A stretch of DNA of 64,000 bases from Cytophagales bacterium (GCA_003454975.1 DMST01000116.1:26659-90658); one strand, 5' to 3'; counted from the stretch's first letter, positions 142-43,799 are shown. Notes: generated by a model not told the origin, from the letters alone. Translations and numbers: made by a program.

Positions 142-1569
142 ATGAAAAAGATTATACATTTTATTCAAAAGTCAGGAGTAGAAGATAGTCAGCCAGATTG
201 GTTTAAAAGGAGATTAGAAATTCTGAATTTTGTAGGAATTTTTACTGGTTTGGGTGTCGGTTTTGGATTTAGTGTACTATTCTTAGCGGTAGGTTACGAT
301 ACGGGTGTCCATTTGCCAGCCATTGGTTTCTTTACCTCCACACCCACGTTTCTCTACAACCGATATTTAAAAGCATACAAGTTTGCTAAACTGCAAACAG
401 GTTCTGGTCCTTTTATCCTAGTCTCAATTTTGCTGGTTAACATGGCTGTTCAGGGACGGGAGCCATATACAGCTTATTATGTTGTGGCTTTTGCCTTTAG
501 TCTGCTCCCTTTCTTGGTATGGGACCCCAGAGAGTCTCGTATGCTAATTGCCAACCTCTCCTTCAATGCCTTGGGCCTGCTCATGATACCTGCGTCTGTT
601 GAGCTGTTCGATTTCGAGCCCTACATTGACATGAGTACTTGGGATCTCACCCTTTCTACTACGGGAGTCATCCTGTACCTGTCCATTGTCTTCTCGCTCA
701 TTGCTTCCTACGCTACCCTCTTTCTGCTGGTCAATTTCAATTATGTAGCGGAAACTAAGAATCAAACCTTATTGCAAGAGGCGAAGGAAAATGCCAAGCA
801 GATTGCCGAGAATGAGAAAGAACTGCAAGGGAACTTAACGCAGATTAAAAAGTCGCAAGAGGAAGAGAAAGAGCGTCAGTGGATCAACGACGGCATTACC
901 GAACTCACCTCTATTCTCCGAAAGACGCAATCCAGCCAGGAGACCTTTGACGAAATGGTGTCCTTCATCGTGAATTATTCTGCTTCTAATCAAGGAGCGC
1001 TTTTCGAAACGGTTCGGCCAGATGAGATGGACTATAATAAGGATGTGTTCTTGGAACTTCGGTCCACCTACGCATACGGTCGGAAGAAATTCGTAAAGCG
1101 CCAGATATCTGAAGGTGAGGGACTCGTAGGGCAGGTGTTCCTGGAGAAGGAACCGTTTTATATGACCGAAGTTCCTGAGAAATATGTGAATATTACTTCA
1201 GGACTAGGTGAGGCACGTCCTCGGGCGGTTTTTATAGCCCCCTTGATAGATAATGATGAAGTAGAAGGGATCCTGGAGCTGGCCTCTTTCAAAGTGTTTG
1301 GCAGCCGGGAAAAGGAGTTTTTGAAGCAGAGTACAGAAATCATTGCGGCACATATCCGGAACACCCGGGTGAATGAAAGGACCCGGCTATTATTAGAACA
1401 GTCTCAGCAGCAGGCTGAGGAGATGAAAGCCCAGGAAGAGGAAATGCGTCAAAATGCTGAGGAAATGCAGGCAACTCAAGAAGAGATGCACCGGAAGGAA
1501 AGGGAGTATCTACAAAGGATTCAGCATTTAGAAAGTCAACTTGAATCTGTGCAGCAGCCACAGGGCTGA
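142..1569 (+). CDS. Membrane-anchored GAF-domain protein with a Q/E-rich C-terminal coiled coil and no recognisable output domain
   Basis: The ORF 97..1569 opens on TTG; the first ATG is at 142 (MKKIIHF). The N-terminal ~200 aa contain several hydrophobic helices. GLVGQVFLEKEPFYM...VFIAPLIDNDEVEGILELASF looks like a GAF core. The C-terminus (QQQAEEMKAQEEEMRQNAEEMQATQEEM) is heptad-like. A hairpin terminator follows. Confidence 0.75.
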   Translation: MKKIIHFIQKSGVEDSQPDWFKRRLEILNFVGIFTGLGVGFGFSVLFLAVGYDTGVHLPAIGFFTSTPTFLYNRYLKAYKFAKLQTGSGPFILVSILLVNMAVQGREPYTAYYVVAFAFSLLPFLVWDPRESRMLIANLSFNALGLLMIPASVELFDFEPYIDMSTWDLTLSTTGVILYLSIVFSLIASYATLFLLVNFNYVAETKNQTLLQEAKENAKQIAENEKELQGNLTQIKKSQEEEKERQWINDGITELTSILRKTQSSQETFDEMVSFIVNYSASNQGALFETVRPDEMDYNKDVFLELRSTYAYGRKKFVKRQISEGEGLVGQVFLEKEPFYMTEVPEKYVNITSGLGEARPRAVFIAPLIDNDEVEGILELASFKVFGSREKEFLKQSTEIIAAHIRNTRVNERTRLLLEQSQQQAEEMKAQEEEMRQNAEEMQATQEEMHRKEREYLQRIQHLESQLESVQQPQG

Positions 1570-1600
1570 CCTACACAAAGTATAACGCATAATTGATGAA

Positions 1601-1630
1601 GGGTCTCCAAAGATGGAGGCCCTTTTTTGT
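1601..1630 (+). terminator. Rho-independent terminator candidate
   Basis: GGGTCTCC (1601-1608) pairs with GGAGGCCC (1613-1620), including one G.U pair. A TTTTTT run follows at 1623-1628, directly after the stop at 1569. Confidence 0.6.
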
Positions 1631-1934
1631 TGACCGTGTGTGTGGTTTCCTAGTGAGATTCGGCTAGACAGCGTTGTCTTTCACATGAGTGCATTAATCG
1701 AAAATATCAGGCTATCCACCTAGTATATTTTTTTTGTCCGCTAATTCTAGTTAGTTATGTAGGGTAACTAGTTGAATGTAAAATTAATATTCAAATAATG
1801 TCAATCAGAAAACTTTCTTACAGGCTTTTATCGTATTAACAGTCATGCATTCATCCTAAAATACCCTGATGGATTAAAAAGTGTTCAAAAAATTCAAAAA
1901 ACTTACATAAGAATGTTTTTTGCATTTTTGGTAA

Positions 1935-1942
1935 TATTTTTG
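1935..1942 (+). promoter_or_regulatory. Candidate Bacteroidota -7 promoter box (TAnnTTTG) for the PKS gene
   Basis: TATTTTTG at 1935-1942 lies inside the 540-bp AT-rich leader upstream of the PKS start (2113). No clean -33 TTG was found at the expected spacing, so this is weak. Confidence 0.25.
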
Positions 1943-2112
1943 AACATCTGGTCGATGCTTTTATAAGGGAAAAGCAATAATAGAACTCCAAAAGCAGGCC
2001 TCACGGGCAGTATAGAAGGGGTGCAGGTAATTTTCCGCCAGCTAGAAAAAACGTAACTTCTAAATCAGAATTCATACGGTCAGTCGTAAATAAATTTTCA
2101 GACAAACAGGAA

Positions 2113-5100
2113 ATGGAACAAACAACGCCAACACGTCGAAAATTGCACGAAAAAGAGCCCCTTGCCATTATTGGTATGAGTGCTCGGCTTCCCGGAGACA
2201 TCTATGGCCCTGAAGGGCTATGGAGCAAGCTCTCGCAGGGAGTTGATGGTATTACCGATGTGCCAGGAGATCGCTGGAGCATTGAGAAATATTATGATCC
2301 TGATCCTGATAAAGCAGGAAAGATCAAGTCGAAAAAGGGTGGCTTTATCAAAGGCATGGCGGAGTTTGATGCTGAATTTTTTGATATCTACCCTAAAGTG
2401 GCTGAACGTATGGACCCCCGCCAGCGCCACCTGCTGGAAGTATCCTACGAGGCTATCGAAGACGCTGGGCTCACTTTGGATGAGCTGGACGGTTCTTTGA
2501 CTGCCTGTACCATGGGTGTGTTCTTGGGAGATGATTCCAAGAAGAATGCACACGACGCTTTGGAAGAGATTACTCCTCACACGGCCATGGGTAGTGCAGA
2601 TACCACCGTGCCTGCGCGTTTGGCTTTTAGCTACAACCTGCGTGGCCCTGTGTTCTCGGTAGATACCGCTTGTTCGTCTTCCCTGGTTGCTATTCACCTG
2701 GCCTGTCAAGCCATCTGGACCGGAGATGCTGATATGGCCATTTCTGGCGGGGTGAACATCATGGAAGATCCTGGGCACTCCATCGAGCTGTCAAAAGGGG
2801 GCTTCCTTAGCCCTGACGGTTATTGTAAAACTTTTGATGCTAGTGGTAATGGATATGTACGTGGCGAAGGCGTTGGCGTAGTAATTCTGAAACCCTTGTC
2901 GGATGCTGAAGCAGCGGGTGATCAAATTTATGCGGTCATTCGGAATACTGTTTCCAATTCTGATGGGTATACGGCTGATGGTATGACCGTGCCTAATGAG
3001 TTTGCCCAGATGGACATGCTCAAGAAGGCCTACGGTGATGTGGGTATCCACCCTGCTGATGTGGACTATATGGAGGCCCACGGTACGGGTACTTCGGTGG
3101 GTGACCCAAAGGAAACCTACGCCTTTGGTCACGTGTTTGCCGATGGGCGTGATGCCAACAAGCCCTTGGTAATGGGCTCTATCAAATCCAACATTGGGCA
3201 TACAGAGGCAGTAGCGGGAGTTGCTGGTTTGATGAAATTGGCTCAGGCGATTAACCACAAAGAGATTCCACGAAATCTGCACTTCAAGACCCCGAACCCA
3301 GGGATCAAATTTGACGAGTGGAAACTAAAGGTACCCACTGAGCAGACACCTTGGCCCGAGACAGGAGATCGCCCTGCCCGCGGTGGAGTTAACTCATTTG
3401 GCGCTGGGGGTACCAATGCTCACGCGGTATTGGAGGAGTATGTTCCCACGGAGAATCGTAAGGAAGACAAGCCTGCTGACGAGAAGCGCTATGAATTCCC
3501 GATGGTCTTCGACTTGTCCGCCAAGTCGGAAGCAGGTCTGAAAGCTACCGCTGACCGGTACGTAGACTACTTGCAAGAAACAGAGGAGTCTCTGGCTTCT
3601 ATCTGTTATTCGTTGAATAAGCGGCGCACCAAACACACCCATCGGGTTATCATCTCGGCGTCTTCCAAAGAAGGAGTTGCGCAAGCACTACAGGCGTTTA
3701 TTCGGGGAGATGAATTTGACGGTGTGGTAACCGGTACTACAGACAAAGACAAGAAGCTTAAGATTGCCTTCGTCTGTTCTGGTCAAGGGCCACAGTGGTA
3801 CGCGATGGGCCGCCAGCTGATGGAAACCAGTGAGGTTTTCCGTCAAACCGTAAAAGACATCGATGTCATCTTCAACCGTCTTTCTGGCTACTCGCTTTGG
3901 GAAGAGATGAACCGGGACAAAGACGAGACTCGAATTGGTGAGACTCGTATTGCTCAGCCTTCTATTATGGCCATGCAGATTGGCCTGATCCACATGTGGA
4001 GAGAGCTCGGGGTTGAGCCAGAGGGGCTGGTAGGCCACTCCATTGGTGAGGTAGCTGCAGCCTATGGCTCAGGAGCTCTTACTCTGGAGCAAGCGGTAGA
4101 TGTGATATATAACCGCTCCAAGGAGCAAGATCGCGCTTCTGGCGCAGGGGTGATGTTGGCTGTGGGTCAAACTCTGGCAGACGCCATGAAGGAGATTCGT
4201 GGGGTGGAAGATCGCGTCTCTATTGCGGCGATCAACGGCCCTGAGATGCTGACCCTGGCTGGGGATAAAGAGCCCATCGAAGAGATTGCAAAACGGCTGG
4301 AGGAGAAAGAGGTTTTCAATAAGTTTTTGCGTGTAAGTGTACCTTTCCATAGCCACCACATGGAGCCTCTGAAGGAGGACCTGCTGGCAGGATTGGCCCA
4401 CTTGGAGCCAGGAGAAGCAAAAACTCCTTTGTATTCTACCGTTACTGGTCAGGAAGAAGATGGTTTGCACCTCACCAGTGATTATTGGTACTCCAACGTG
4501 CGGGATACAGTGTACTTCACTGCCGCAATAGAAGAGATGATCAACGATGGCTACAATGTATTCGTTGAGATTGCTCCTCACCCCGTATTAGGTGCTAGTG
4601 TGAACGATATGTTGGGCTCTATGAACAAGCAAGGGACCATCATCACCTCGGCACGTCGGGATATTAAAAAGTTTGAAGGGGGCGTAAAATATGAAGAGTC
4701 TACTTTCCTGCGTGGAGCTTCGCAGTTGGCCATCACTGGTGCCAAGGTAGACTGGACCGTGCTGTACCAAGGTAGCGATGCTAAATATGTGAAACTGCCA
4801 CGCTACGTATGGCAGCATCAGGAGTTCTGGTCTGAGACCAAGGAGCACCGCAAGTGGAGAACGGAGGTAGATGCCCACCCCTTGGTGGAGAACTTCCAGT
4901 TTGGGGCGGATAGCGCTGTGAATACCTTCAATCTGCGTCCGGACAAGCGCGTAGAGAAGTGGTTGGTAGATCACGTAATTGATGATGTATTGGTAGTGCC
5001 AGGTACTGGTCAGGTAGAAATGGCCAATACTGTGGGCAAGATGAAATATGGTGAGGATTTCAATTTTGTAGAAGACCTCAACTTTGACCAGGCCTTAACC

Positions 5101-8100
5101 CTGCCAGATGATGGTCCTTCTCCCTATGTCCGGTTGCGTTTCATTTCCCAAGAAGAAGGGGAGTATGTAATTGAGAGTGCTGACCGTGAGGATGACGAAT
5201 TGGTATGGAAGCAGCACAGCTCGGGTAAAATGAATTTCCTAGGGGATTCGTTTGAGTCAAGAACTGCGGACCTGGAGGTTATTCGTCAGCGCTGTACAGA
5301 GGCAGTGGATGTAACTGCCATGTATCAGGATGTGGCTAGCTATGGTCTGAAGTATGGCCCTACATTTCGCCTGGTGCAAGACATGAACCTTGGGGGAGAT
5401 GCTGAAATACTAAGTACCGTAAAGCTACACGATAGTTTAGGGTATGGAGCGGATCGTTTCGCCTTCCATCCGGCCCTACTGGATGCTAGTTTGCATACCA
5501 TCTTCGGCCAGCGCAAGTCTTACAACGGTAAGAAAGGAAACTACCTTCCAGCCCATATCGATCGGGTAAAAGTATACCAAAAGCCCGATGCAGAGGTATT
5601 GGTGTATGTGAAAATGACCCGCAACGATGCTGACTTCTTAAATGGTGACTATATCATCATGAATCTGGACGGCACCGTGGTGGCTGAGATCCAAGGGTTA
5701 GTATGTAAGTACGTAAAAGGTTCGCGTGGTGAGAGTTTGGACTCTGATTATGAGGGGGTAGCCGAATACGTATGGCAGGCTGCTTCAATAGATGAGCTGT
5801 TGGAAGGCAAAGATGCGGGTGAGCCCAAAGTGGGTAATGTGTTGGTATTGGCCGACGGTACGGGTGTAGGCGAGCACATGATCAATGCCCTCAAAGGCAA
5901 AGTCGATAATCTGTTTGTAGCCCGGAAAGGCGATGCCTATGCAGAAAATACTGTGGATGGCGTGAAAGAATTCACCCTTCCTCTCTCTAAGTATTCTGAT
6001 AAACTAGACCTACAGGAGGCTGGAGATGACAAATCTCCTGAAAAACTGCAGCCCGAATACGAGCAAGAATTGGCTCTGTATTCTCAAATGATCCAAGCGG
6101 CGGGTGCCAATAGCATCGATAAGATTGTGTACCTGTGGGGATTGGATAATACAGTAAACGACGATACCGATTCGGAGACCTTTACCCGCCAAAGCCAGGA
6201 CCTGTTCTTTGGTGCAGTAAACACCATCAAAGCGCTTACTACCGCCAATGAGGATTATACTGGTCAGTTTTGGTTCGTTACCCAAGGCCTGGAACGAGTA
6301 ACCCACGCCGAGGAGCAAATTAACTTCGGCCAAGGTGGTATGTATGGCATCATGCGGGTGCTAGTCAATGAATATCCTAGCATAGCCGTTCGTGCCGTAG
6401 ACTTGGAGAACCATGCTGGTGCTGAGCAATTGGATCTGCTGGTATCTGAAGTGACTACCTATGGCGAAGTACTGAAAAACGTAGAGGTAGCCTTGCGCGG
6501 AACGGATCGTTACCAACGAGTGGCTACCCAAGTAACTGCTGAGGATGCTGAAGACCGGGCGGCTAGAAAGATGAATGCTGCTGGTGCTTGGTTCCACGCA
6601 GACGTAAAAACCATCGGAGATGCGGAATCCATAGTCTTCCGGGAGAAGGTGCAAGCCGACCTGGGCGCTGGTGAAGTACTCGTTGAGGTGAAGGCTGCTG
6701 GTGTTTCCAAAGTAGACGTGGACATCGTGATGAGCCCCGAGTCAGAAGAAGAAGCTTCGTTTGGATATACTGGCAACCGATTGGGCCGTGAAGCGGCTGG
6801 AGTTGTGAAAGCAGTAGGCGAAGGAGTTTCTGCACTGGCAGTAGGCGACGAAGTATACGGTTGGGTAAATGAAGGGGTAGCAGGTATGGCTACTGCCTTG
6901 GAGCGTACCTTGGCTAAGAAGCCTGCCCACATTTCTTTTGAAGAAGCGGCCACTATTACTGTTCCGTTCATGACGGCCCACTATGCGTTGGGTTCTCTGG
7001 CACAATTAGACGAAGGTGAGCGGATTCTGATTCATAATGCCAATACTGGCATTGGCGTGGCGGCCATTCACTTTGCACAGAAGTTGGGTGCTGAGATTTT
7101 TGCTACGGCTAAAACAGAAGAGCAACGGCAGTATGTTCGCGACCTGGGAGTTGAACATGTATTCGATTCAGACTCTGGCAAATCAGAGTTTTATAAAGGG
7201 ATTCTGAAGGCTATCGGTAGTACGGAAGAAGAGAAGAAGCGCGGAGTAATTGATGTGGTCCTCAATAGCCTTTCTGGCAAGGCGACTACACAAAGCATGC
7301 GCTTGTTGAGAGACTTCGGTCGCTTCATCGAATTGAGCAAGGAAGATATCAACGACAACCGACAGCTGAGCTTGGCCAACTTTGGTCGTAACCTGGCCTA
7401 TTTCGCCATGGATATGGATCGCCTGGTGAAGAATAAGCCACGCGTGGCTACGCGGATCTTCCAAGAGGTAGTTGCACTCTTCGAAAACAAAACCGTAACT
7501 CCCGTAAGCCCCAAGGTATTCTCAGTGGGTGATACTCAGGAGGCCATTAAGTTCTTGGCTGACGGTGAGAATATCGGTAAGGTTGCTCTTTCCATCGACG
7601 GCGAGTTGAGCTTGCTGCCCATGAAGGAGCTACGTCTGATGAAGAATGGTAGCTACCTGATCTCTGGTGGTATGGGAGGTTTAGGCCTCACCTTGGCGCG
7701 CAACTTCGCTGGGCTAGGGGCAGGTACTGTGGTGCTCTTGTCTCGTAGCGGTCGGGCCAAAACAGACCGTGATAAGCGCCTCATCCAGGAAATGGAAGAT
7801 ATGGGTACTAAGGTGCTCATGCCTACGGGTGATGTGGCGGATTATGCCCGTATTCAAGAAGTAATTGCTGAGTTGAAAGACGAGGCTCCTCTTCGCGGGG
7901 TGGTACACAGCGCGGCGCTTATGAAGGACTCTACCTTCGGTAATATGGGCCCTGGCACCTACTACAAGGCCTTCCAAGCAAAAGCCTTGGGTGCTTTTAA
8001 CCTGCACAAAGCGGTTAAGGATATCGATACGGTAGACTTCTTTATGCCGATCTCGTCTATCTCTGCCTTTGTAGGTCTGCCGGGTCAGTCCAACTACTCT

Positions 8101-9732
8101 GCAGCCAACAACTTCGAGGATAAGCTATCACTACATCGTCAAGTACTTGGGCTGCGCGGTAGTGCTATTCAGTACGGTGTATTGAGCGGTGAAATAGCCG
8201 GTCTGTCACGCGAAGTAGGTGAAGAGACCGTGCTTAAAGTACTTGAGCAACAAGGTTGGGATATCATGCCCGAGAACCGGATTGTGAATCATGCAAACCG
8301 TCTGATCCTGGATCAGGCTCCGTTCCGGATGCATGCGGATATGCATTGGGGCCAGTTTGGTGAGTTCTTCGCACATCTGCAAAAAGACAGTCGCTTCGAA
8401 GAAGTCCTGAAAAATGCCAAGCAAGGTTCTGGTGGTGAAGGCGGCGGTAGCTTGCTGGACCAATTGAAGAATCTGGACGAAGATGGTAGAAATGCCAAGC
8501 TGCAGGAAGAGGCACAAGGTGCATTGGCTAAAATCCTGGGTACAAGTGCCGATAAGATTGATATCGACAAATCCATCTCTAAGATTGGTTTGGATTCCTT
8601 GATGCTCAATCAACTGCGCAACTGGATTCAAGGTAAGTTGGAGATCAACTTCCCGTTGATGAAGATTGCCAAAGGGCCCACCATCATCGAGCTAGCTGAG
8701 GAGATTCTAAAAATTGTAGAACTGGATACTGCGGCAGGTGCTGGTGATTCCGGTGCAGCCAAGGATGCTAAGCCTGCAGTGAAGGAAATCCCCACTATGA
8801 CGGAGAACGGCGTTACGTTTGAAGCCAAGGATGGCCTATGGATTTCTAAAGACAACTGGCTAGCTAGAGCAGAAGGTGTTAATGACAATGCATCCCTCCA
8901 AATGTTCTGTATGCACGGAATGGGAGGCGAAAGTGAGATGTTCTTCCCCTTCATGCTGAGCTCGCCTAAGGATACCAAGGTGTTCACCATGCAGCAGCCC
9001 GGTCGTGGTCATGGCTCAGGCGCTACTATGGATCGTAGTGGGGAACCCCAATACGCGAAAAGTGAGCAGCTATTGGAGAAAATGATGGAAGTCCTTCTGC
9101 CATGGCTCAACAAGCCTACCATTTTCTGGGGCCACAGTATGGGAGGAATGGAGCTGTGGGAGATTTCTCGCCGACTCAAAGCCAACCATCCTGAGGCGTA
9201 TGCCAATGTGAAAGGTTTGGTGATTTCCGGCACGGCTAGCCCCATTGCCTTGGACAACTGGAAAACCAAGCGAATGCTCGTGGATTCGTTGAACCTGCCG
9301 GTAGATGCTTCTGAAGAACGATTGGATGAGTTGGTAGAGCATTTTAGAGCCATGATGCCAGAGCTACAGAGTGCTACCTTCTTGAAGCGTGTTATCCAAG
9401 TAATGGGTAGAGACATGCGGATGTGGCATGACTTTGAGCCCGATCCAAATCGTGTTCCTCTGGACTTGCCATTGCTTGCACTGGCCTCTACTGAAGATGG
9501 GGTAACTCCTTTCGAAGAGGAATTCCTTCCTTGGAAACAAGAAGTGGAAGAAGGCAAATTTGACTTGGTGGAATTTTTGGGAGACCACTGGTTCCTGACC
9601 ACTCGAGTGAAGAAGAAGGAGGCTGATGGTAGCTTTGCCACCGACGAAAAGGGTAATACCATTGAATTGGCTAATAACGAGGAAATCGTAAAAGAGAATA
9701 TCCAGCGGTTTATTAACCAGTGGGTAGGCTAA
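2113..9732 (+). CDS. Type I polyketide synthase, single fully reducing module KS-AT-DH-psiKR-ER-KR-ACP-TE (FAS/MAS-like, probably iterative)
   Basis: A 2539-aa ORF with an ATG start. The motifs DTACSSS, EAHGTGT, SNIGHTE (KS), GHSIGE (AT), HVIDDVLVVPG (DH), LIHNANTGIGVAA (ER), GGMGGLG plus SNYSAAN (KR), GLDSLM (ACP), and GHSMGG plus GDHWF (TE) occur in canonical order. Confidence 0.95.
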   Translation: MEQTTPTRRKLHEKEPLAIIGMSARLPGDIYGPEGLWSKLSQGVDGITDVPGDRWSIEKYYDPDPDKAGKIKSKKGGFIKGMAEFDAEFFDIYPKVAERMDPRQRHLLEVSYEAIEDAGLTLDELDGSLTACTMGVFLGDDSKKNAHDALEEITPHTAMGSADTTVPARLAFSYNLRGPVFSVDTACSSSLVAIHLACQAIWTGDADMAISGGVNIMEDPGHSIELSKGGFLSPDGYCKTFDASGNGYVRGEGVGVVILKPLSDAEAAGDQIYAVIRNTVSNSDGYTADGMTVPNEFAQMDMLKKAYGDVGIHPADVDYMEAHGTGTSVGDPKETYAFGHVFADGRDANKPLVMGSIKSNIGHTEAVAGVAGLMKLAQAINHKEIPRNLHFKTPNPGIKFDEWKLKVPTEQTPWPETGDRPARGGVNSFGAGGTNAHAVLEEYVPTENRKEDKPADEKRYEFPMVFDLSAKSEAGLKATADRYVDYLQETEESLASICYSLNKRRTKHTHRVIISASSKEGVAQALQAFIRGDEFDGVVTGTTDKDKKLKIAFVCSGQGPQWYAMGRQLMETSEVFRQTVKDIDVIFNRLSGYSLWEEMNRDKDETRIGETRIAQPSIMAMQIGLIHMWRELGVEPEGLVGHSIGEVAAAYGSGALTLEQAVDVIYNRSKEQDRASGAGVMLAVGQTLADAMKEIRGVEDRVSIAAINGPEMLTLAGDKEPIEEIAKRLEEKEVFNKFLRVSVPFHSHHMEPLKEDLLAGLAHLEPGEAKTPLYSTVTGQEEDGLHLTSDYWYSNVRDTVYFTAAIEEMINDGYNVFVEIAPHPVLGASVNDMLGSMNKQGTIITSARRDIKKFEGGVKYEESTFLRGASQLAITGAKVDWTVLYQGSDAKYVKLPRYVWQHQEFWSETKEHRKWRTEVDAHPLVENFQFGADSAVNTFNLRPDKRVEKWLVDHVIDDVLVVPGTGQVEMANTVGKMKYGEDFNFVEDLNFDQALTLPDDGPSPYVRLRFISQEEGEYVIESADREDDELVWKQHSSGKMNFLGDSFESRTADLEVIRQRCTEAVDVTAMYQDVASYGLKYGPTFRLVQDMNLGGDAEILSTVKLHDSLGYGADRFAFHPALLDASLHTIFGQRKSYNGKKGNYLPAHIDRVKVYQKPDAEVLVYVKMTRNDADFLNGDYIIMNLDGTVVAEIQGLVCKYVKGSRGESLDSDYEGVAEYVWQAASIDELLEGKDAGEPKVGNVLVLADGTGVGEHMINALKGKVDNLFVARKGDAYAENTVDGVKEFTLPLSKYSDKLDLQEAGDDKSPEKLQPEYEQELALYSQMIQAAGANSIDKIVYLWGLDNTVNDDTDSETFTRQSQDLFFGAVNTIKALTTANEDYTGQFWFVTQGLERVTHAEEQINFGQGGMYGIMRVLVNEYPSIAVRAVDLENHAGAEQLDLLVSEVTTYGEVLKNVEVALRGTDRYQRVATQVTAEDAEDRAARKMNAAGAWFHADVKTIGDAESIVFREKVQADLGAGEVLVEVKAAGVSKVDVDIVMSPESEEEASFGYTGNRLGREAAGVVKAVGEGVSALAVGDEVYGWVNEGVAGMATALERTLAKKPAHISFEEAATITVPFMTAHYALGSLAQLDEGERILIHNANTGIGVAAIHFAQKLGAEIFATAKTEEQRQYVRDLGVEHVFDSDSGKSEFYKGILKAIGSTEEEKKRGVIDVVLNSLSGKATTQSMRLLRDFGRFIELSKEDINDNRQLSLANFGRNLAYFAMDMDRLVKNKPRVATRIFQEVVALFENKTVTPVSPKVFSVGDTQEAIKFLADGENIGKVALSIDGELSLLPMKELRLMKNGSYLISGGMGGLGLTLARNFAGLGAGTVVLLSRSGRAKTDRDKRLIQEMEDMGTKVLMPTGDVADYARIQEVIAELKDEAPLRGVVHSAALMKDSTFGNMGPGTYYKAFQAKALGAFNLHKAVKDIDTVDFFMPISSISAFVGLPGQSNYSAANNFEDKLSLHRQVLGLRGSAIQYGVLSGEIAGLSREVGEETVLKVLEQQGWDIMPENRIVNHANRLILDQAPFRMHADMHWGQFGEFFAHLQKDSRFEEVLKNAKQGSGGEGGGSLLDQLKNLDEDGRNAKLQEEAQGALAKILGTSADKIDIDKSISKIGLDSLMLNQLRNWIQGKLEINFPLMKIAKGPTIIELAEEILKIVELDTAAGAGDSGAAKDAKPAVKEIPTMTENGVTFEAKDGLWISKDNWLARAEGVNDNASLQMFCMHGMGGESEMFFPFMLSSPKDTKVFTMQQPGRGHGSGATMDRSGEPQYAKSEQLLEKMMEVLLPWLNKPTIFWGHSMGGMELWEISRRLKANHPEAYANVKGLVISGTASPIALDNWKTKRMLVDSLNLPVDASEERLDELVEHFRAMMPELQSATFLKRVIQVMGRDMRMWHDFEPDPNRVPLDLPLLALASTEDGVTPFEEEFLPWKQEVEEGKFDLVEFLGDHWFLTTRVKKKEADGSFATDEKGNTIELANNEEIVKENIQRFINQWVG
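2155..3440 (+). other. PKS ketosynthase (KS) domain
   Basis: Runs from EPLAIIGMSARLPG to GGTNAHAVLEEY. The active-site Cys codon is at 2671-2673 (DTACSSS). The HGTGT and KSNIGHTE His motifs are present. Confidence 0.9.
3760..4662 (+). other. PKS acyltransferase (AT) domain, malonyl-like
   Basis: Contains KIAFVCSGQGPQW and GHSIGE, with the Ser codon at 4039-4041. The downstream VPFHSHHM resembles the xAFH (malonyl) motif rather than YASH (methylmalonyl). Confidence 0.85.
4876..5720 (+). other. PKS dehydratase (DH) domain
   Basis: Begins at HPLVENF. The catalytic-His motif is LVDHVIDDVLVVPGTG (His codon 4972-4974), followed by a double-hotdog-sized region ending near VCKYVKG. Confidence 0.8.
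6590..7597 (+). other. PKS enoylreductase (ER) domain (MDR family)
   Basis: Contains GEVLVEVKAAGV, GDEVYGW, ILIHNANTGIGVAAIHFAQKLGAEIFATA (nucleotide-binding stretch at about 7031-7065) and GENIGKVAL. The preceding 5800-6560 has the size and position expected of a psi-KR structural subdomain. Confidence 0.8.
7648..8200 (+). other. PKS ketoreductase (KR) domain
   Basis: Contains the Rossmann motif YLISGGMGGLGLTLA. The catalytic Tyr in GQSNYSAAN is at 8095-8097. Confidence 0.85.
8500..8720 (+). other. PKS acyl carrier protein (ACP) domain
   Basis: Contains LAKILGTSADKIDIDKSISKIGLDSLMLNQLRNW. The phosphopantetheine-attachment Ser codon is at 8596-8598. Confidence 0.9.
8896..9620 (+). other. 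PKS thioesterase (TE) domain (alpha/beta hydrolase)
   Basis: Starts at LQMFCMHGMGG. The nucleophile elbow is WGHSMGG (Ser codon 9136-9138). The His in LGDHWFL is at 9586-9588. Confidence 0.85.
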
Positions 9733-9761
9733 AGTTTTCCTTGAAGCATAATTAATAGCAA

Positions 9762-9797
9762 AGGGAATTGCCCATCGGGGTAATTCCCTATTTTTGT
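9762..9797 (+). terminator. Strong intrinsic terminator between the PKS and the PPTase; its T-tract doubles as a TAnnTTTG box
   Basis: A 12-bp stem, AGGGAATTGCCC (9762-9773) pairing with GGGTAATTCCCT (9778-9789), includes one G.U pair and closes a tetraloop ATCG. It is followed by ATTTTTGTTTG. TATTTTTG (9789-9796) matches the Bacteroidota -7 consensus and lies 10 nt before the PPTase ATG at 9807. Confidence 0.8.
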
Positions 9798-9806
9798 TTG
9801 TAGCGT

Positions 9807-10577
9807 ATGCCAATACTTACCAACACGGTTGTCTCTGAGCTTCCTCTTCGTGGATACCACAAAGGGTTTCATGCCTATTTGGGTTTCTGCAACGTGGACC
9901 ATGACCGGTTGCTGCAAACAAAAAATCGATACCTGAGCGGGTATGAGCAAGAGCGCTACGATACTATAGAGGCGGTTCCTCACAAGCAATCTTACCTACG
10001 GGGTAGGTACATCTCCAAAGAGGTGTTGGGAGCCTATTTTGAAGAAACCGAGCTCACGCAGTTCAATATAGTCAACGGTATATTTAACCAGCCTATCGTA
10101 GAATATAAGCTAGGGCACAACCGCACGGGAGTAAGCATATCGCACAACGAGGAATACGGAATTGGCGTGGCATTCTCAGAAGAGATTCCCATGGCCGTGG
10201 ATATCGAACGTTGTAGCCTAAGCCAGAAAGAGATCATCAAAAGCCAGATTACCAATGATGAGCGCGAGATGGCGGCAGATATGCCTTGGCAAAGTACGAT
10301 TGCCTATACCGTTTTGTGGACGGTAAAAGAGGCCATTTCTAAGGTAATCAAGACCGGTCTTACCATTCCGCTAGATGTGCTTAAGGTTGGGAGTTTCAAG
10401 GCAAACGAAAATCACATTATTTGTGAATTTGAGAATTTCACCCAGTACCAAACCGTGTCCTTTCGGGTGAAAGACCACGTCTGTAGCATGGCCATGCCAC
10501 TAAATGCTGCCGAAGGAGACGATGTTTTTGAGTTTATTGAGCAGACCTTATTCAACTTAAAGCTACAATCAGTATGA
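9807..10577 (+). CDS. 4'-phosphopantetheinyl transferase (Sfp-type)
   Basis: 256 aa. Contains GVSISHNEEYGIGVAFS, MAVDIERC and WTVKEAISKVIKTG (the W/KEA motif), which together are characteristic of Sfp-family PPTases. It lies immediately downstream of the PKS. Confidence 0.85.
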   Translation: MPILTNTVVSELPLRGYHKGFHAYLGFCNVDHDRLLQTKNRYLSGYEQERYDTIEAVPHKQSYLRGRYISKEVLGAYFEETELTQFNIVNGIFNQPIVEYKLGHNRTGVSISHNEEYGIGVAFSEEIPMAVDIERCSLSQKEIIKSQITNDEREMAADMPWQSTIAYTVLWTVKEAISKVIKTGLTIPLDVLKVGSFKANENHIICEFENFTQYQTVSFRVKDHVCSMAMPLNAAEGDDVFEFIEQTLFNLKLQSV

Positions 10578-10987
10578 CACTACTGATCAAATTGTCCTTG
10601 ATGGTAGTGTTGGTTTTTGGGAGTAGCTGTGCCACTGCTCAGATGAAGTGGGAGGCTTGGGGTGTAAATCAAGAGCTGAAATTTGGTGAAATACTAGTCC
10701 TACCCACAGGTTTAGGTTCCGTTCAGTTTTCAAAATTAGTGAAGGATCATCGTTGCCCGATTGATGCGCAATGCATCACACAAGGAACCGTGATTGTTGA
10801 GTTTACTTATCTAAATAAGGAAGGGGCTTCCTCAGAGATCCAGCTATCTCTGGGTGATGATCAGGATTTGGTACATTCTTTTAGCGAATTTAGTGTAGAG
10901 TTGAAGGAAGTAACCCCACTTCCTAGTTCAGAGAAACCCGTTGTGCCTACAGAATATCGGGTTACGCTGTTGTTTTCTGAATATTAA
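10574..10987 (+). CDS. Small lipoprotein of unknown function
   Basis: 137 aa. The ATG overlaps the PPTase stop (ATGA at 10574-10577). Signal peptide with lipobox LVFGSSC. Carries the conserved-looking Cys pair HRCPIDAQCITQG. No family recognised. Confidence 0.7.
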   Translation: MTLLIKLSLMVVLVFGSSCATAQMKWEAWGVNQELKFGEILVLPTGLGSVQFSKLVKDHRCPIDAQCITQGTVIVEFTYLNKEGASSEIQLSLGDDQDLVHSFSEFSVELKEVTPLPSSEKPVVPTEYRVTLLFSEY

Positions 10988-11109: not shown

Positions 11110-11148
11110 CCTAAAGCACAATTCAATTTTTGATTGTGCTTTAGGTTT
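11110..11148 (+). terminator. Hairpin terminator candidate after the PKS-PPTase-lipoprotein unit
   Basis: A perfect 13-bp stem, CCTAAAGCACAAT (11110-11122) pairing with ATTGTGCTTTAGG (11133-11145), is followed by TTT. Confidence 0.6.
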
Positions 11149-11175
11149 AGTTAGTACTCATGTAGGTTGACAAAA

Positions 11176-11206: not shown

Positions 11207-11208
11207 GC

Positions 11209-23253: not shown

Positions 23254-26200
23254 TTAACGAATCACAATTCGCTCAGCAAAGCGTTTCTCCCCTTCCATAA
23301 TGGATAGGAAGTAAACACCTGGTGAAGGATCGTTTACCGTAATCTCATGATTACCTGCAATGGTGCCCTCATGACGATAAACCGTTTGACCAAGGCTGTT
23401 TGTCAATTCGATGGTTACGTCTTCGGTAGGTGTGCTAGACCACTGAAGTGTAAACGAACCCTGGTTGGGGTTAGGATATACAGCTAGGTCTAGGTCTGAA
23501 GCAAAGCTATCAGATAGGTCGTTTTTCTCGCTGGAACAATCCGAAGAGTTCTGCGTCTCTCCAGCCAAGGCGGCAATTTCAGAGTTGTCCAACCCGTTTG
23601 ACCACATCTTCACTTCATCCAAGGTACCTGAGAAGAACCGATCGGTTTTGTCATTCCGTCCACCCAGCCAGAGTGCAGTACCACTATTTGCATTTAGCGA
23701 ACCATTTACGGTAGCGGTGTAAACCGGAATTCCGTTCACAAAGCCTGTCAACGTTCCGTCTTGCAGTCTCCATGCAATGTGCGTCCAAGTACCCGTCGCA
23801 ATGTTAGAAGCCATCTGGTGTGGTCCTACGTTGCTGGTTCCAGCCAGTGAAATAACCGGTTGCCCGTTGTTCACCATTACCTGATACGAGAAGCTGCTGC
23901 CATCACGGTTTTTGGCCATCAGTACTGCATACTTGGTTGATTGGCTAGTATTTACCCACATCGCAATGGTGAATTCGTTCGACAATTCGAAAGCAGATGC
24001 TGAACCAATGTTGACATAGTCGTTAGCGCCGTCGAATACCATACCTGCGCCATCATAACCAGCGCCGCGTGTCGCTCCTACAATAGTACCATCGTTCAAT
24101 CCCAGAGAATCTACTGCGGTACCTGAAGCACAATCGTCAAAGAGCCATGCACCCAAAATATCGTCTGGGCATTCTGCAGGACTATTGCTGATCCTTGATA
24201 CTTCAGAAGCCATAGTTTGAGATTCCAGAGCTTCGTTAAAGATTCGGATCTCATCAATAGCTCCTTTGAAAGGGCGATTGCCGTCTGGGCGAGCACCAAT
24301 ATAGTGAGAGCCAGAAGCAGTAAAGTTGATGTTTCCAGAAAGGTTAGTTACCGTTCTGTCGGCTACTCCATTAATGTATATCGTAAGCGTGCCTTCCTCA
24401 TAAGTGACCCCGATATGAGACCAAGTGTCCACAGAAAGTGAAGTATTGGCGTCAAAATATCCAGGGTTGGAAAGTCCTCCCAAATAAACGCGAGGTAGCA
24501 ATGAGTTCAGAACGATCACGTTCGAGATACCGGCTTCACTACGGTACAGTAGTACCTCGTTATTGCCATTGCTCTTGGTCGGATATACCCAGAAACTGTA
24601 GCTAAGCGCGTCGCCTTCACCCAAGGTATAAGCCGAGTCATTCAAGTTGGTGTAGTCGTCTACACCATCAAACCACACAGCCTGGTTGTTGTAACCCGAG
24701 GAAACGTATGTATCACCAGAGATTACACCTACCGTAGTGTCATCGGCACCGTTGGTGAGGGTAGTACTGGCACAATCGTCCATGTCAAAGGAGGCCATGA
24801 TGCTGGTTTCATCTGCAGGACATGCTACAGGAGCCTCCTCAAAGCTTGCCAAATAGCTGGCCTGATTGGCTTCCAAGGCGGCAGCATAAATCTGAACCTC
24901 ATCGATCATACCGTCAAAGGCTTGAGCATTAGCCCCGTTACTGCTACCAATCCAAACGGGTTGACCGAAATTGGTATTCAGTGATCCCGCAGGAACAGCA
25001 AGCTGAGAGTTCTGAACTCCATCGATGAAGATGGTCACCAAGTCGTTACCATAGGTGACGGTAACGTGGTGCCAGGGGCCGTCGGCAATGGAAGCACCCG
25101 TACTCTTGTATGGACCGATCTCTTGCAAACCTCCCATGAATACTTCCACAATTCCGCCATTCAACCGGATCATCCAGCTGCTATTAGAACCGTCCTGATT
25201 GCGAAGAATCAGCCATTGCTTAGCATTGGATGAGGTTTTTAGCCACATGGCAACACTAAAGGAAGAGGTAAAGGCCAATGAAGAGTCTGTACCTAAAGAG
25301 ATGTAGTCGTCTACGCCATCAAAATCGAGACCTTGATTGATGTAACCACCACGCCAATCGGCTCCTGATACGGTTCCGTCAGTACCATCAGTTACATCGT
25401 TGGTTGCTATATCACCAGAACAAGCATCCAGACCAAGATCAACAATTAACTGAGACAAGTCACAATCCTCAGGGCCAGTAAAGTTAACTCCTCCGTCTAC
25501 CGTTACTGAAGCCGTTCCAGTGCTTACATTGCCTGAAGAATCGGTTACCGTCAGAGTTACGGTTATGGTTCCGATGTCAGAACAAGCGAAACTAGTTTGA
25601 CTCAAGACCATGCTGGCAATGCCACAGTTGTCTGAGCTTCCATTGTCCACCGCTTCAGCGGTAAGAGAAGCGCTTCCACTTGCATCCAGCGTAATCGTAA
25701 CATTCTGAGTTACCACTGTAGGAGCCACAGAATCGACCACAGTTATCGTAACTGAATCAGTGGCAGAGTTGCCCGATGGATCAGTAATGGTAACACCCAT
25801 CCTGAGGCTTCCAATGTCGGAGCATCCGAAGGAAGTCCGATCAAGCACCTCGGTGAATGAGCAGTTGTCAAAACTGCTATTGTCGATATCAGCAAAGCTT
25901 AAAGAAGCAGATCCATTGCCGTCCAAATACAAGGTGGCATTCTGCACCGATAGGGTAGGGGCTATGGAATCAATTACAGTAACCGTAACGGTGGTGCTAC
26001 CTTCGTTCTCGAAGTCATCGAAACCACTTAGCGTGACCGAATTGGCACCTAGATTACTACACGTAAAGGTGTATTGAGAGAGCTCAAGTGTTAGATTACA
26101 GTTGTCCGAACTACCGTTATCAATATCACCTTCAGTGATGGTAACCGAACCCGCTGCATCCAGATATACCGTGAGGTCTTGACCTATCACGGTAGGTGCG

Positions 26201-43000: not shown

Positions 43001-43799
43001 CCACCTTGCCATTCACGTATATCGGTCGGCAGTTGGCGTGCACGTGGAAGAACTTGCCTTCCTCATTGATCATCTCAAACTCCCCACTACCCGGAACGCC
43101 TTGGTCGCGGGCATTGCCTAAAATTTCCTGCGCTCGGGTAGACGACTCTTTGAAAAAATACCGCATGGCAACCTCAAGACTCACCGGATAGTCCAGTGGT
43201 AACCCATAGATGCGATAGATCTCATCTGTCCATACCATCTCGTCAGAATCTATCTCCCACTCCCAACCGCCTACACGGGTCATTTCTTGGGCGGTTTCCA
43301 GCACCGATAGGTACTGAGATTCCTTGCTGATATTTTCTAGGGTGATTACAAACTGGTCTTTCCTCTTTTCCGGTATAGCCTGGTAGATGGTAAGCCTAAA
43401 AAAGACCAGTTTGCCTTGTTTGTCCAATCCTTGCCAGGTACTCGCATTCTGCGATTCGGTATGCTGGCTGGGGTGGGTCAAAATCTCCTTTAATGCTCTA
43501 TGGCCATCTACTTCTAGCAGGTCATGAAGAGCTTTGCCCACGGCTTCGGTTGCAGAATAGCCCGTGATTTGGGTAAACCCAGAATTGACGTGTTGGATGA
43601 GAGTGTCAGAATTGACAATGCAAATGCCGACCGAGATATCTTGAAAAACGGATCGGGCCCATTCGTTCACTTGCTGCGATTTAGCAAGCTCCTCCCTCAG
43701 ACGCATATTCTCCTTTTCCAAGGCCTCCATCGAAGGAGTTTGGGGAGAAGAAGCCTCTGGAGAAAAAGAAAGATTTTGATCCTCTGGATGGGAGTGCAT
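40014..43799 (-). CDS. Multi-PAS sensor histidine kinase (HisKA + HATPase_c), cytoplasmic
   Basis: 1261 aa. About 8 PAS/PAC units, each separated by a coiled coil plus a TERK(Q/E) junction. The H-box is FVYSASHDLRAP. The N, G1 and G2 boxes are MISNAFRYS, EDNGQGI and GSGLGLYIV. There is no adjacent response regulator. Confidence 0.9.
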   Translation of the reverse strand: MHSHPEDQNLSFSPEASSPQTPSMEALEKENMRLREELAKSQQVNEWARSVFQDISVGICIVNSDTLIQHVNSGFTQITGYSATEAVGKALHDLLEVDGHRALKEILTHPSQHTESQNASTWQGLDKQGKLVFFRLTIYQAIPEKRKDQFVITLENISKESQYLSVLETAQEMTRVGGWEWEIDSDEMVWTDEIYRIYGLPLDYPVSLEVAMRYFFKESSTRAQEILGNARDQGVPGSGEFEMINEEGKFFHVHANCRPIYVNGKVAKVIGAFRDITREKRTLETLTQSEELYRNLAENFPSGFILMINRGFDILFSEGQGLRDISQSKSHLQGKSIHYLFGKSLNKMVEEKIWDAFDGESSQLDVSFQNKSYSLELRPLYNAQQKIDKVLLVCMDITERQEWEKQLRISESRYRELFESNPNPILVVETHTGKVLEANLTAISHYGFSQSEWQTMHWADLQAVSSDFDSNILAGVSTEKHHSKAGALIYAEVQASQIYYLGGEATLKIINDVTESLMATQALHSSHKALEEFHHALDAASMVVTLTLRGDFLTANKNFCEAYGLDEDALVLKNIRDFPDMIPGSESFAQIDRAVRKGKIWKGEIDIHRADGSPLFLDVTLIPRYMNTDGRNSILVILQDVTEKKLTEKQLVEYAQRSTNILESITDAMFLLNKNWEVTYINKQGESLLRISRDELLHKVIWDVFPKEQIQSFYEYYHTAIEENRVVDFEEYFEPSETWFEVHVYPSSEGLSVYFRSINERKAAEERILSSENSLKEAQRIARMGNWEYRVGANEVIWSDELFRLFKLDPVIDSPSLDLILNRIHRSDKPKVFRALRTALDEGKGFDLDLRIIRKDGTRYLNFICRPEHGPDDSLEKLYGILIDITERKEAEKKLIDSENRLREAQQLGKMGSWEYSPEEDTLLFSDEINTLLGLTQEQRNVISIADNFDVIHPDDQEALLFALGDAVDQGTPFDLDFRVMLPQGPVRYFNTVGEPLMNSRGNLVKLYGTLMDITERKQAETELKESNDQLKKTNQELDRFVYSASHDLRAPMVSVLGLINLAKVENDVDKLREYMGLMERSVRKLDNFVQEIIHYSRNSRLEVKGEPINFKEMIEGVIEDLQFMEEAKVVRRELFLDINEPFYTDRGRLNVVINNMISNAFRYSSPHRRDPYLNIYATVQDGKAILKFEDNGQGIAEEHQAGIFRMFYRASENSKGSGLGLYIVQESIEKLQGKVFLTSVLGQGTTFTIELPSLPPNNAE

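What the first reader, a model, noticed from the sequence alone, without database searches (positions are those of the whole stretch)
1570..10987. Stand-alone FAS/MAS-like fully reducing type I PKS with its own PPTase and a coupled lipoprotein in a Bacteroidota genome
One 2539-aa ORF carries a single complete module, KS-AT-DH-psiKR-ER-KR-ACP-TE.

It has no loading module, C-methyltransferase or docking region, and there is no second PKS/NRPS gene in the window.

Every catalytic residue I could read is present:
- KS Cys at 2671-2673, plus the HGTGT and NIGHTE His motifs
- AT Ser at 4039-4041
- KR Tyr at 8095-8097
- ACP Ser at 8596-8598
- TE Ser at 9136-9138 and His at 9586-9588

This architecture matches animal FAS and mycocerosic-acid-synthase-type iterative synthases. 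It implies iterative assembly of a saturated fatty-acyl-like chain released by hydrolysis. That would run in parallel to the type II FAS normally used by Bacteroidota.

A 540-bp AT-rich leader precedes the gene. An Sfp-type PPTase and a small lipoprotein follow it.

The product and its role (specialised envelope lipid, or a signalling or defensive lipid) cannot be derived from the sequence.
Basis: partly seen in the sequence, partly recalled or inferred. Interest (0 to 1): 0.75.

Follow-up and report, generated by a model that had tools for sequence, protein, structure and literature searches.

The report
Orphan fatty-acid-synthase-like polyketide synthase locus
A marine Cytophagales bacterium carries an intact single-module, fully reducing polyketide synthase with its own activating enzyme, a divergent member of a widespread but unstudied Bacteroidota family that probably makes a saturated fatty-acid-like lipid.

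Summary
It is the only PKS-type gene in the 64 kb.

It is not unique. About 2400-aa proteins with the same architecture (40-45% identical) occur in many Cytophagales genera and in a few Proteobacteria. No member has a known product in the literature searched, and published antiSMASH runs list comparable clusters as "Type I PKS" without a known match. In a KS-AT tree the window protein is the deepest branch of this family.

The resemblance to animal FAS and MAS is architectural only:
- The KS is closest to cis-AT modular PKS (CurL).
- The AT is malonyl-type.
- The TE is type-II-thioesterase-like.

The conserved gene set is PKS plus a PPTase immediately downstream, plus a membrane signalling-type protein. 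The "lipoprotein" is confined to this lineage: three proteins in 5.8 billion.

Most likely function: iterative, FAS-like synthesis of a saturated acyl chain released by hydrolysis. This is inferred, not shown. I rate it a new member of a known kind, of moderate interest.

The parts
142..1569 (+). Membrane GAF-domain protein (475 aa as annotated; the ORF from TTG at 97 gives 490 aa). It has an N-terminal multi-helix membrane domain, a long helix, a GAF domain and a C-terminal coiled coil, with no enzymatic output domain. It is the conserved partner of this PKS family.
   Evidence: Pfam GAF_2 at 5.8e-10. Homologs lie next to PKS-PPTase in 22 other loci. AF2 model pLDDT 89.5, with only the GAF domain matching PDB folds. 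A 100% match to DCE41_20925.
1598..1625 (+). Terminator-like hairpin plus T-run that ends the GAF gene transcript.
   Evidence: -19.5 kcal/mol, z = -4.6.
1626..2112 (+). Intergenic region upstream of the PKS (34-35% GC). It presumably holds the PKS promoter and 5' UTR. No known RNA family was found.
2113..9732 (+). Single-module type I PKS, 2539 aa, KS-AT-DH-(spacer/psiKR)-ER-KR-ACP-TE.
2155..3285 (+). KS domain (C187, H323, H363).
3769..4692 (+). AT domain (S643, R668). The GHSIGE and VPFHS motifs indicate a malonyl-type AT.
4876..5718 (+). DH domain (H954 in HxxxDxxxxP, YGPTF, D1124xxxH1128).
5719..6603 (+). DH-ER spacer, presumed structural psiKR. No methyltransferase remnant was detected.
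   Evidence: weak matches only.
6604..7593 (+). ER domain (MDR type). NADPH motif A-N-T-G-I-G; K1743 and D1767 present.
7648..8184 (+). KR domain (GGMGGLG; K1957, S1982, Y1995, N1999).
8509..8718 (+). ACP domain (phosphopantetheine attachment at S2162 in GLDSLM).
8899..9603 (+). Thioesterase domain of the type II TE class (S2342, D2462, H2492).
9762..9789 (+). Strong hairpin plus T-run between the PKS stop and the PPTase start. It is a likely attenuating terminator and is conserved in the relative MAG.
   Evidence: -21.4 kcal/mol, z = -5.3.
9807..10577 (+). Sfp/HetI-type 4'-phosphopantetheinyl transferase (256 aa).
   Evidence: Orthologs lie directly after the PKS in 29 other loci.
10574..10987 (+). 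Small secreted or probable lipoprotein (137 aa, Cys19). It is translationally coupled to the PPTase (ATGA overlap) and is lineage-restricted.
   Evidence: The structure model is unreliable.

Best explanation
The locus encodes a stand-alone, FAS-like type I polyketide synthase.

Proposed steps:
1. The adjacent Sfp-type PPTase converts the ACP (S2162) to its holo form.
2. The malonyl-type AT (S643) loads malonyl units. A short or pre-formed acyl starter is presumably loaded too.
3. The KS (C187/H323/H363) condenses.
4. KR, DH and ER fully reduce each beta-carbon.
5. Because no other module exists, the single module is used repeatedly.
6. The fused type-II-like thioesterase (S2342/D2462/H2492) hydrolyses the mature chain, giving a free, largely saturated, unbranched fatty acid.

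Shown here: gene integrity, domain order, presence of all catalytic residues, absence of partner PKS genes, and conserved linkage to a PPTase. Inferred: iteration, full reduction in every cycle, chain length, starter unit and hydrolytic release.

The gene belongs to an orphan family spread through Cytophagales. Its conserved neighbours are a PPTase and a membrane signalling-type protein (GAF here). This points to a specialised, regulated lipid rather than bulk fatty-acid supply.
For: - The ORF is intact and has the complete reducing domain set.
- Every catalytic motif is present and nearly invariant across 68 family members.
- The AT carries GHSIGE and VPFHS. Phe at the specificity position is established knowledge for malonyl-type ATs.
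- The ER aligns to the SpnB and CurK ERs with the catalytic Lys and Asp kept.
- The TE is nearest to the hydrolytic type II thioesterases RifR, Mtb TesA and human OLAH, and to free-standing TEs of about 250 aa.
- No other KS, AT, ACP, KR, ER or TE homolog occurs in the 64-kb window. None occurs within 10 kb either side of the gene in any of the 52 family loci.
- A PPTase lies directly downstream in 41 other loci (29 Sfp-type and 12 EntD-type), as it does in the window.
- The best solved full-length relative is the iterative MAS (895 bits). Dictyostelium Pks16 is also high (693 bits).
Against: - There are no expression or product data.
- Iteration cannot be read from sequence. A single or few elongations of a pre-formed acyl chain would fit equally well.
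- Iterative reducing PKSs can skip reduction steps.
- The window protein deviates at two motifs. The ER has TGIG instead of GGVG. The DH has HxxxD instead of HxxxG, although Asp occurs in 27 of 68 family members.
- The TE is divergent: only 2 library proteins match at E <= 1e-30.
- A strong hairpin separates the PKS from the PPTase.
- In the one close relative MAG, the PPTase-lipoprotein pair sits after a different gene.
- The enterobacterial family members have no adjacent PPTase.
Confidence: 0.6

Rival explanations
1. The enzyme is an elongase rather than a de novo synthase. It accepts a fatty acyl chain made by the cell's type II FAS and adds one or a few fully reduced C2 units. The product would be a longer, special-purpose fatty acid, released by the TE.
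For: The protein starts directly with the KS and has no loading domain. The nearest solved full-length relative, MAS, works this way on long-chain starters (mechanism from established knowledge). SwfA-type monomodular PKSs are discussed as 'iterative or single elongation' (PMC3908369).
Against: No fatty acyl-AMP ligase or acyl-CoA ligase lies next to the gene in the window or on the public contig. None is conserved in the family loci. Sequence alone cannot separate this from the best explanation.
Confidence: 0.2
2. The enzyme is a programmed highly reducing PKS. The reducing domains are skipped in some cycles, so the product carries hydroxyl groups or double bonds. The TE-like domain off-loads it by lactonisation or by transfer to an acceptor. 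The product could then be a signalling or bioactive polyketide.
For: By KS sequence it groups with secondary-metabolite cis-AT PKS (CurL, PikA, DEBS) rather than FAS. Genome papers report antiSMASH 'Type I PKS' clusters in Reichenbachiella and Fulvivirga, but whether those clusters are this gene was not checked. Neighbouring genes encode signalling-type membrane proteins: GAF, MCP-like, or a 7TM histidine kinase.
Against: The TE resembles hydrolytic type II TEs, not macrocyclising PKS TEs. No tailoring enzymes are conserved nearby. All three reducing domains are intact and conserved.
Confidence: 0.15
3. The gene is a decaying or silent relic with no current function.
For: Some assemblies of the same locus show the gene split into three ORFs (L056). 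The relative MAG's copy loses similarity in the TE region.
Against: The window and a JGI contig carry an uninterrupted 7.6-kb ORF. All catalytic residues are kept. GC and GC3 are like the host genes. The splits are most simply assembly errors in low-coverage MAGs.
Confidence: 0.03

Closest known systems
Orphan Cytophagales 'type I PKS' family (for example Persicobacter, Flammeovirga pacifica, Catalinimonas alkaloidigena, Rhodocytophaga aerolata, Reichenbachiella)
   Same: Collinear over 98% of its length at 40-45% identity, with the same KS-AT-DH-ER-KR-ACP-TE order and the same signature motifs. A PPTase lies directly downstream and a membrane GAF protein lies in the locus.
   Different: The window protein is the most divergent member: mean 42% identity against a family median of 52%, and the deepest branch in the NJ tree. 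It is 100-150 aa longer through insertions. The GAF gene is upstream, and triplicated on the contig, instead of downstream. It has an extra lineage-specific lipoprotein gene. No family member has a known product.
Mycocerosic acid synthase and MAS-like PKS of mycobacteria (PDB 9D2Y, 5BP1, 5BP4)
   Same: An iterative single module with KS-AT-DH-psiKR-ER-KR-ACP. It is the best full-length match among solved structures (895 bits).
   Different: MAS uses methylmalonyl-CoA. It lacks a TE and depends on an acyl-AMP ligase and an acyltransferase (established knowledge). Here the AT is malonyl-type, a TE is fused and no ligase is nearby. The NCBIfam Pks2 model scores 1141 against a cut-off of 2400.
Metazoan fatty acid synthase (PDB 2VZ8, 8VF7) and Dictyostelium Pks16 (9NJU)
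   Same: The same order of catalytic domains, ending in ACP-TE, and predicted fully reducing chemistry.
   Different: KS similarity is much lower (268-282 bits) than to bacterial cis-AT PKS. No pseudo-methyltransferase was detected. The TE is nearer to type II TEs, and the FAS TE is not among the hits.
cis-AT modular PKS modules such as CurL (PDB 4MZ0)
   Same: The closest single KS by sequence among solved structures (446 bits). The KS-AT linker matches the CurL-like Pfam model.
   Different: Those are modules of multi-module assembly lines with docking elements. This protein is a lone module with no partner.
Monomodular PKS/FAS of Gram-negative bacteria and symbionts: SwfA, SupA, WcbR/RkpA (PMC3908369), and the iterative PfSgaAB sphingolipid PKS of Pseudomonas (PMC12134224)
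   Same: A single reducing module in a non-actinobacterial host, thought to make a lipid-like chain. Products are mostly unknown or lipid-like.
   Different: The SwfA architecture, as read here, ends at the ACP and is paired with reductase-sulfotransferase and radical SAM genes. Here there is a fused TE and none of those partners. The SwfA KS lacks canonical HGTGT, which is present here. No sequence comparison was possible with the tools.

Membership tests
Orphan Cytophagales PKS-TE + PPTase family | Full-length collinear homology with KS-AT-DH-ER-KR-ACP-TE in proteins of about 2400 aa | tested here: met
   40-45% identity over 98% of the query to 68 proteins.
Orphan Cytophagales PKS-TE + PPTase family | Groups with the family, apart from modular PKS outgroups | tested here: met
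   NJ tree on 883 KS-AT columns. The family is monophyletic and the window is its deepest branch. There is no bootstrap and a long branch, so placement within the family is provisional.
Orphan Cytophagales PKS-TE + PPTase family | PPTase gene immediately downstream of the PKS | tested here: met
   Window 9807..10577. The same arrangement occurs in 41 other loci (29 Sfp-type, 12 EntD-type).
Orphan Cytophagales PKS-TE + PPTase family | Membrane GAF protein in the locus (Sfp-type PPTase clade) | tested here: met
   Window 142..1569 is 27-37% identical to the GAF genes that follow the PPTase in 22 loci. Here it lies upstream.
Orphan Cytophagales PKS-TE + PPTase family | Family signature motifs (AT GHSIGE and VPFHSHHM, ACP GLDSLMLNQLRNWI, TE GHSxGG and GDHWF) | tested here: met
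MAS-like mycobacterial PKS | KS-AT-DH-psiKR-ER-KR-ACP single iterative module | tested here: met
   Domain order. Best PDB match is MAS. psiKR is supported by position only.
MAS-like mycobacterial PKS | Methylmalonyl-specific AT (GHSQGE / YASH) | tested here: not met
   GHSIGE and VPFHS, invariant in the family.
MAS-like mycobacterial PKS | No TE; partner acyl-AMP ligase and acyltransferase genes | tested here: not met
   A TE is fused. No AMP-binding or PapA-like gene is in the neighbourhood. The Pks2 NCBIfam model scores below its cut-off.
Metazoan type I FAS | Order KS-MAT-DH-...-ER-KR-ACP-TE | tested here: met
Metazoan type I FAS | Pseudo-methyltransferase between DH and ER | tested here: not met
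   The 290-aa spacer has no Pfam match at E <= 5 and no PDB match better than E = 0.2.
Metazoan type I FAS | Nearest sequence relatives are FAS | tested here: not met
   KS scores 268-282 bits to FAS against 446 to CurL and about 350-390 to DEBS, Pik and MAS. This is a bit-score ranking, not a full phylogeny.
Metazoan type I FAS | FAS-type TE domain | tested here: not met
   The only PDB hits at E <= 0.01 are type II TEs (RifR, TesA, OLAH and others).
PUFA synthase PfaA / heterocyst-glycolipid-type synthases | PfaA model score; tandem ACPs | tested here: not met
   TIGR02813 scores 380 bits against a cut-off of 1010. There is a single ACP.
SwfA / SupA / WcbR-RkpA monomodular PKS-FAS | No TE; partner reductase-sulfotransferase, radical SAM or capsule genes; non-canonical KS motifs in SwfA | tested here: not met
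   A TE is present. The partners are absent from the window. The canonical HGTGT is present, in contrast to the description in PMC3908369. Direct sequence comparison was not possible.
Sfp-type PPTase (ORF 9807..10577) | PF01648 domain with the Asp/Glu metal site and W/FxxKE motif | tested here: met
   PF01648 at 4e-11, with weak HetI, AusB and EntD NCBIfam hits. The motifs AVDIE and WTVKEAISK are read.

The most novel reading that the evidence does not exclude
The PKS-PPTase pair and its invariably adjacent membrane signalling-type protein could form a self-contained module that makes and senses a lipid signal in gliding Cytophagales.

The adjacent protein differs by clade. It is a GAF protein here, triplicated and next to a hybrid histidine kinase. 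It is HAMP-MCP-like in the Reichenbachiella/Ekhidna clade. It is a 7TM hybrid kinase in one MAG. In Catalinimonas the GAF protein is followed by a SpoIIE/SiaC partner-switch set.

Under this reading, the fatty-acid-like product is a diffusible or membrane-resident signal whose level is read by these proteins.
Probability: 0.12. Interest if true: 0.7.

Novelty: new member of a known kind. Interest (0 to 1): 0.42.

Why it matters
Bacteroidota are thought to build their lipids with a type II FAS. This work points to a conserved type I, FAS-like synthase with its own PPTase across many Cytophagales genera. It has no known product and is always linked to membrane signalling-type proteins. That suggests an unrecognised specialised lipid in these abundant marine and soil polysaccharide degraders.

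The family is compact: effectively two genes. Several members are in cultured strains, so the question can be tested directly by heterologous expression. The enzyme is also a naturally TE-terminated, malonyl-specific, fully reducing single module of bacterial origin, which could be useful for fatty-acid engineering.

The chemistry expected is conventional. The window's copy is simply a divergent member of the family.

Tried and rejected
- Closer relatives in JGI metagenomes. Two scans, one with the ACP-TE protein and one with the window+L002 alignment, found nothing closer than 31%.
- Regulatory RNA in the leader. Rfam at E <= 1 gave only chance-level hits on the terminator. A strict Bacteroidota promoter pattern (TTTG-N17-23-TAnnTTTG) does not occur in the leader, so no promoter is claimed.
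- Shared sensor domain between partner proteins. hhalign of the GAF-partner and MCP-partner families showed no homology (probability 1%).
- Fold of the GAF protein's membrane domain. Foldseek matched only the GAF domain.
- Fold of the lipoprotein. The AF2 model had pLDDT 49.8 and was too poor to search.
- psiKR and pseudo-methyltransferase. Pfam and PDB searches of the DH-ER spacer gave no significant match.
- Horizontal transfer. GC and GC3 of the PKS are in the host range.
- A characterised family member. Six full-text searches found none.
- Rejected idea: that the lipoprotein is a core part of the system. It is absent from all other family loci.

Full report
**What is in the sequence**

The window carries an uninterrupted ORF at 2113..9732 (+) of 2539 aa. 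Pfam assigns, in order, KS, KS-AT linker, AT, DH (PKS_DH_N plus PS-DH), an MDR-type ER, KR, ACP and a PF00975 thioesterase. There is no methyltransferase, loading, condensation or docking domain.

- C187 in DTACSSS
- S643 in GHSIGE
- Y1995 in YSAAN
- S2162 in GLDSLM
- S2342 in GHSMGG
- H2492 in GDHWF

HGTGT and NIGHTE are also present.

Further catalytic residues are present and are invariant or nearly so in 68 homologs:
- DH: H954, D1124, H1128
- ER: K1743, D1767
- KR: K1957, S1982, N1999
- AT: R668
- TE: D2462

Two deviations stand out. The DH motif reads HxxxD rather than HxxxG, but Asp occurs in 27 of 68 family members. The ER nucleotide motif reads TGIG rather than GGVG.

The ER aligns end to end with the SpnB and CurK ERs, with the catalytic Lys and Asp matched.

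The 290-aa DH-ER spacer has no significant Pfam or PDB match. 'psiKR' is therefore a positional inference, and no pseudo-methyltransferase is evident.

tblastn of each domain against the 64-kb window finds only the gene itself. The other long ORFs are type IX secretion (T9SS) cargo proteins and PAS histidine kinases. The 'stand-alone' description is therefore confirmed.

**Flanks**

ORF 9807..10577 is an Sfp/HetI-type PPTase (PF01648 4e-11).

ORF 10574..10987 overlaps the PPTase stop (ATGA). It encodes a 137-aa protein with a signal peptide ending at Cys19, and it has no Pfam match.

A 12-bp-stem hairpin followed by a T-run lies between the PKS stop and the PPTase start (9762-9789; -21.4 kcal/mol, z = -5.3). 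Only 17 nt separate it from the PPTase ATG. PPTase expression therefore probably depends on read-through; this is an inference.

The 543-bp spacer upstream of the PKS is 35% GC. This is unremarkable next to another spacer at 30%. It begins with the terminator hairpin of the upstream gene (1598-1625). It matches no Rfam family and holds no canonical Bacteroidota promoter pattern.

**Source**

Exact look-ups identify the genes as DCE41_20910, 20915, 20920 and 20925 of a 'Cytophagales bacterium' MAG. The PKS is HAA14015.1, annotated as a hypothetical protein. The same locus was recovered from three other assemblies.

T9SS sorting domains in the window agree with a Bacteroidota origin.

**It belongs to a family**

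The best database matches are about 2400-aa proteins, 40-45% identical over 98% of the length, with the same architecture. They come from Persicobacter, Flammeovirga, Catalinimonas, Fulvitalea, Saccharicrinis, Rhodocytophaga, Xanthocytophaga, Aureibacter, Reichenbachiella and many MAGs.

A genome scan with an ACP-TE alignment returned 52 loci. Most are Cytophagales. Some are Yersinia, Serratia, Methylobacter and Skermanella, and two are MAGs labelled Rickettsiales.

Family members are a median 52% identical to each other, but the window protein averages 42% to them. In an NJ tree of the KS-AT region, the family separates from modular PKS outgroups and the window protein is its deepest branch. 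That tree has no bootstrap support.

The only close relative is a fragmentary Bacteroidota MAG, at about 72% identity over ER-KR-ACP. Two metagenome scans found nothing closer.

**What is conserved around it**

In the 52 loci no second KS, AT or ACP gene lies within 10 kb either side.

A PPTase lies directly downstream in 41 other loci. It is Sfp-type in 29 and EntD-type in 12.

In the Sfp-type clade, 22 loci then carry a membrane GAF protein of about 460 aa.

An AF2 model (pLDDT 89.5) shows a helical membrane domain, a long helix, a GAF domain and a C-terminal coiled coil, with no output domain. Only the GAF domain has PDB fold matches.

On the public contig, two further paralogs and a divergent hybrid histidine kinase precede the GAF gene.

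Other clades carry different signalling-type neighbours:
- The EntD-type clade carries a HAMP-MCP-signal protein instead.
- One MAG carries a 7TM hybrid kinase.
- Catalinimonas adds SpoIIE, DUF6272 and SiaC genes.

The GAF and MCP partner families share no detectable homology.

The small lipoprotein has no homolog in any family locus. It has only two homologs in 5.8 billion proteins, both following the PPTase in the same lineage. It is therefore a lineage-specific addition.

In the relative MAG, the hairpin-PPTase-lipoprotein unit follows a FAD amine oxidase gene rather than the PKS.

**Relation to known enzymes**

Over the full length, the best solved relative is the iterative mycocerosic acid synthase (895 bits). 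It is followed by a trans-AT bimodule, Dictyostelium Pks16 and DEBS, with animal FAS at about 545 bits.

With the KS alone the order changes:

| KS comparator | Bits |
|---|---|
| CurL | 446 |
| PikAI | 391 |
| DEBS | about 365 |
| MAS, Pks13, Pks16 | about 350 |
| LovB | 321 |
| Animal FAS | 268-282 |

The TE matches only type II thioesterases such as RifR, Mtb TesA and human OLAH. In a 1.8-billion-protein library it matches family C-termini and then free-standing TEs of about 250 aa.

All NCBIfam equivalog models (Pks2, Pks13, PfaA) score far below their cut-offs.

The AT motifs GHSIGE and VPFHS indicate malonyl specificity by established motif rules, unlike MAS.

The protein thus has the FAS/MAS domain order. 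It descends from the bacterial cis-AT PKS radiation and carries a TEII-like release domain.

**Literature**

Six full-text searches found no characterised member. Genome papers on Reichenbachiella and Fulvivirga report an antiSMASH 'Type I PKS' cluster. The Reichenbachiella table gives no similar known cluster (PMC10752948). For Fulvivirga only two of the 16 BGCs had close MIBiG homologues (PMC12565237). I did not check that those clusters are this gene.

The known analogues are other monomodular PKS/FAS:
- SwfA, SupA and WcbR/RkpA. SwfA ends at the ACP and has different partner genes (PMC3908369).
- The iterative PfSgaAB sphingolipid PKS (PMC12134224).

**Interpretation**

The best-supported reading has confidence of about 0.6. 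It is an iterative, FAS-like synthase, activated by its own PPTase, that builds a saturated unbranched acyl chain from malonyl units and releases it by hydrolysis.

Gene integrity, domain set, residues, solitary status and PPTase linkage are shown. Iteration, complete reduction in each cycle, starter, chain length and release mode are inferred.

The rivals are an elongase acting on pre-formed acyl chains (0.2), a programmed partly reducing PKS (0.15) and a silent relic (0.03).

The recurrent neighbourhood of membrane signalling-type proteins is unexplained. It supports a speculative reading in which the product is a lipid signal (probability about 0.12).

**Verdict**

The gene is a divergent new member of an orphan family of a well-known enzyme kind. 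The 'trio' should be redefined as GAF protein + PKS + PPTase. Interest is moderate (0.42).

Noticed in passing
Upstream of window position 1, on the public contig (L056 6651-11428; L057 4509-9286): Three tandem paralogous membrane-GAF genes (461, 467 and 475 aa, about 44% identical). The last is window 142..1569. They are preceded by a divergently transcribed hybrid histidine kinase-response regulator and nuoHIJ genes.
   Followed up: partly
L028, L030, L032, L034, L035, L041, L051, L053, L060 (next to PKS-PPTase): In the Reichenbachiella/Ekhidna/Marinoscillum clade the partner gene is a HAMP + MCP-signal (chemoreceptor-like) protein. This is unexpected in non-flagellated gliding Bacteroidota.
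   Followed up: partly
L061 18278-22508 (Catalinimonas alkaloidigena): The GAF gene after PKS-PPTase is followed by SpoIIE phosphatase, DUF6272 and SiaC-family genes. This looks like a partner-switching signalling set.
   Followed up: no
L011 11787-15383: A 7TM hybrid histidine kinase (HisKA_7TM, HATPase, two receiver domains, Hpt) directly follows PKS-PPTase in a MAG labelled Rickettsiales. The label may be a binning error, since the L030 'Rickettsiales' copy is nearly identical to that of Marinoscillum.
   Followed up: no
window 9762-9806 and L059 about 2085-2130: The hairpin, T-run and the bases up to the PPTase start codon are conserved in the relative MAG, although the upstream gene there is a FAD amine oxidase rather than the PKS.
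   Followed up: partly
L002 about 3480-3622: At the contig end, where the TE coding sequence should continue, there are tandem copies of a roughly 22-nt unit (GGTGGTCTCCAGTGACCATCTC...). This is either an assembly artefact or a disruption of the relative's PKS.
   Followed up: no
L017, L019, L022, L031, L042, L046 (about 11130-11770): An extra ORF of about 210 aa without any Pfam match sits between the PKS and the PPTase in six family loci.
   Followed up: partly
L044-L049 (Yersinia and Serratia): Enterobacterial copies of the PKS have no adjacent PPTase or GAF/MCP gene. The Y. pekkanenii copy is followed by a SAM-dependent methyltransferase.
   Followed up: partly
window 23254..28923 (-), 32769..38027 (+): Two very large T9SS cargo proteins: Laminin_G repeats with Por_Secre_tail, and PKD repeats with CHU_C.
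   Followed up: no
window 40014..43799 (-), 54494..58102 (-), 49333..51648 (-): Two multi-PAS histidine kinases (one HWE/HisKA_2 type) and an RPE65-family carotenoid oxygenase homolog.
   Followed up: no
L001 25131-27230 (Persicobacter sp. CCB-QB2): eboA, TatD and UbiA genes (an ebo-type cluster) lie about 8 kb downstream of the PKS. This is probably coincidental.
   Followed up: no
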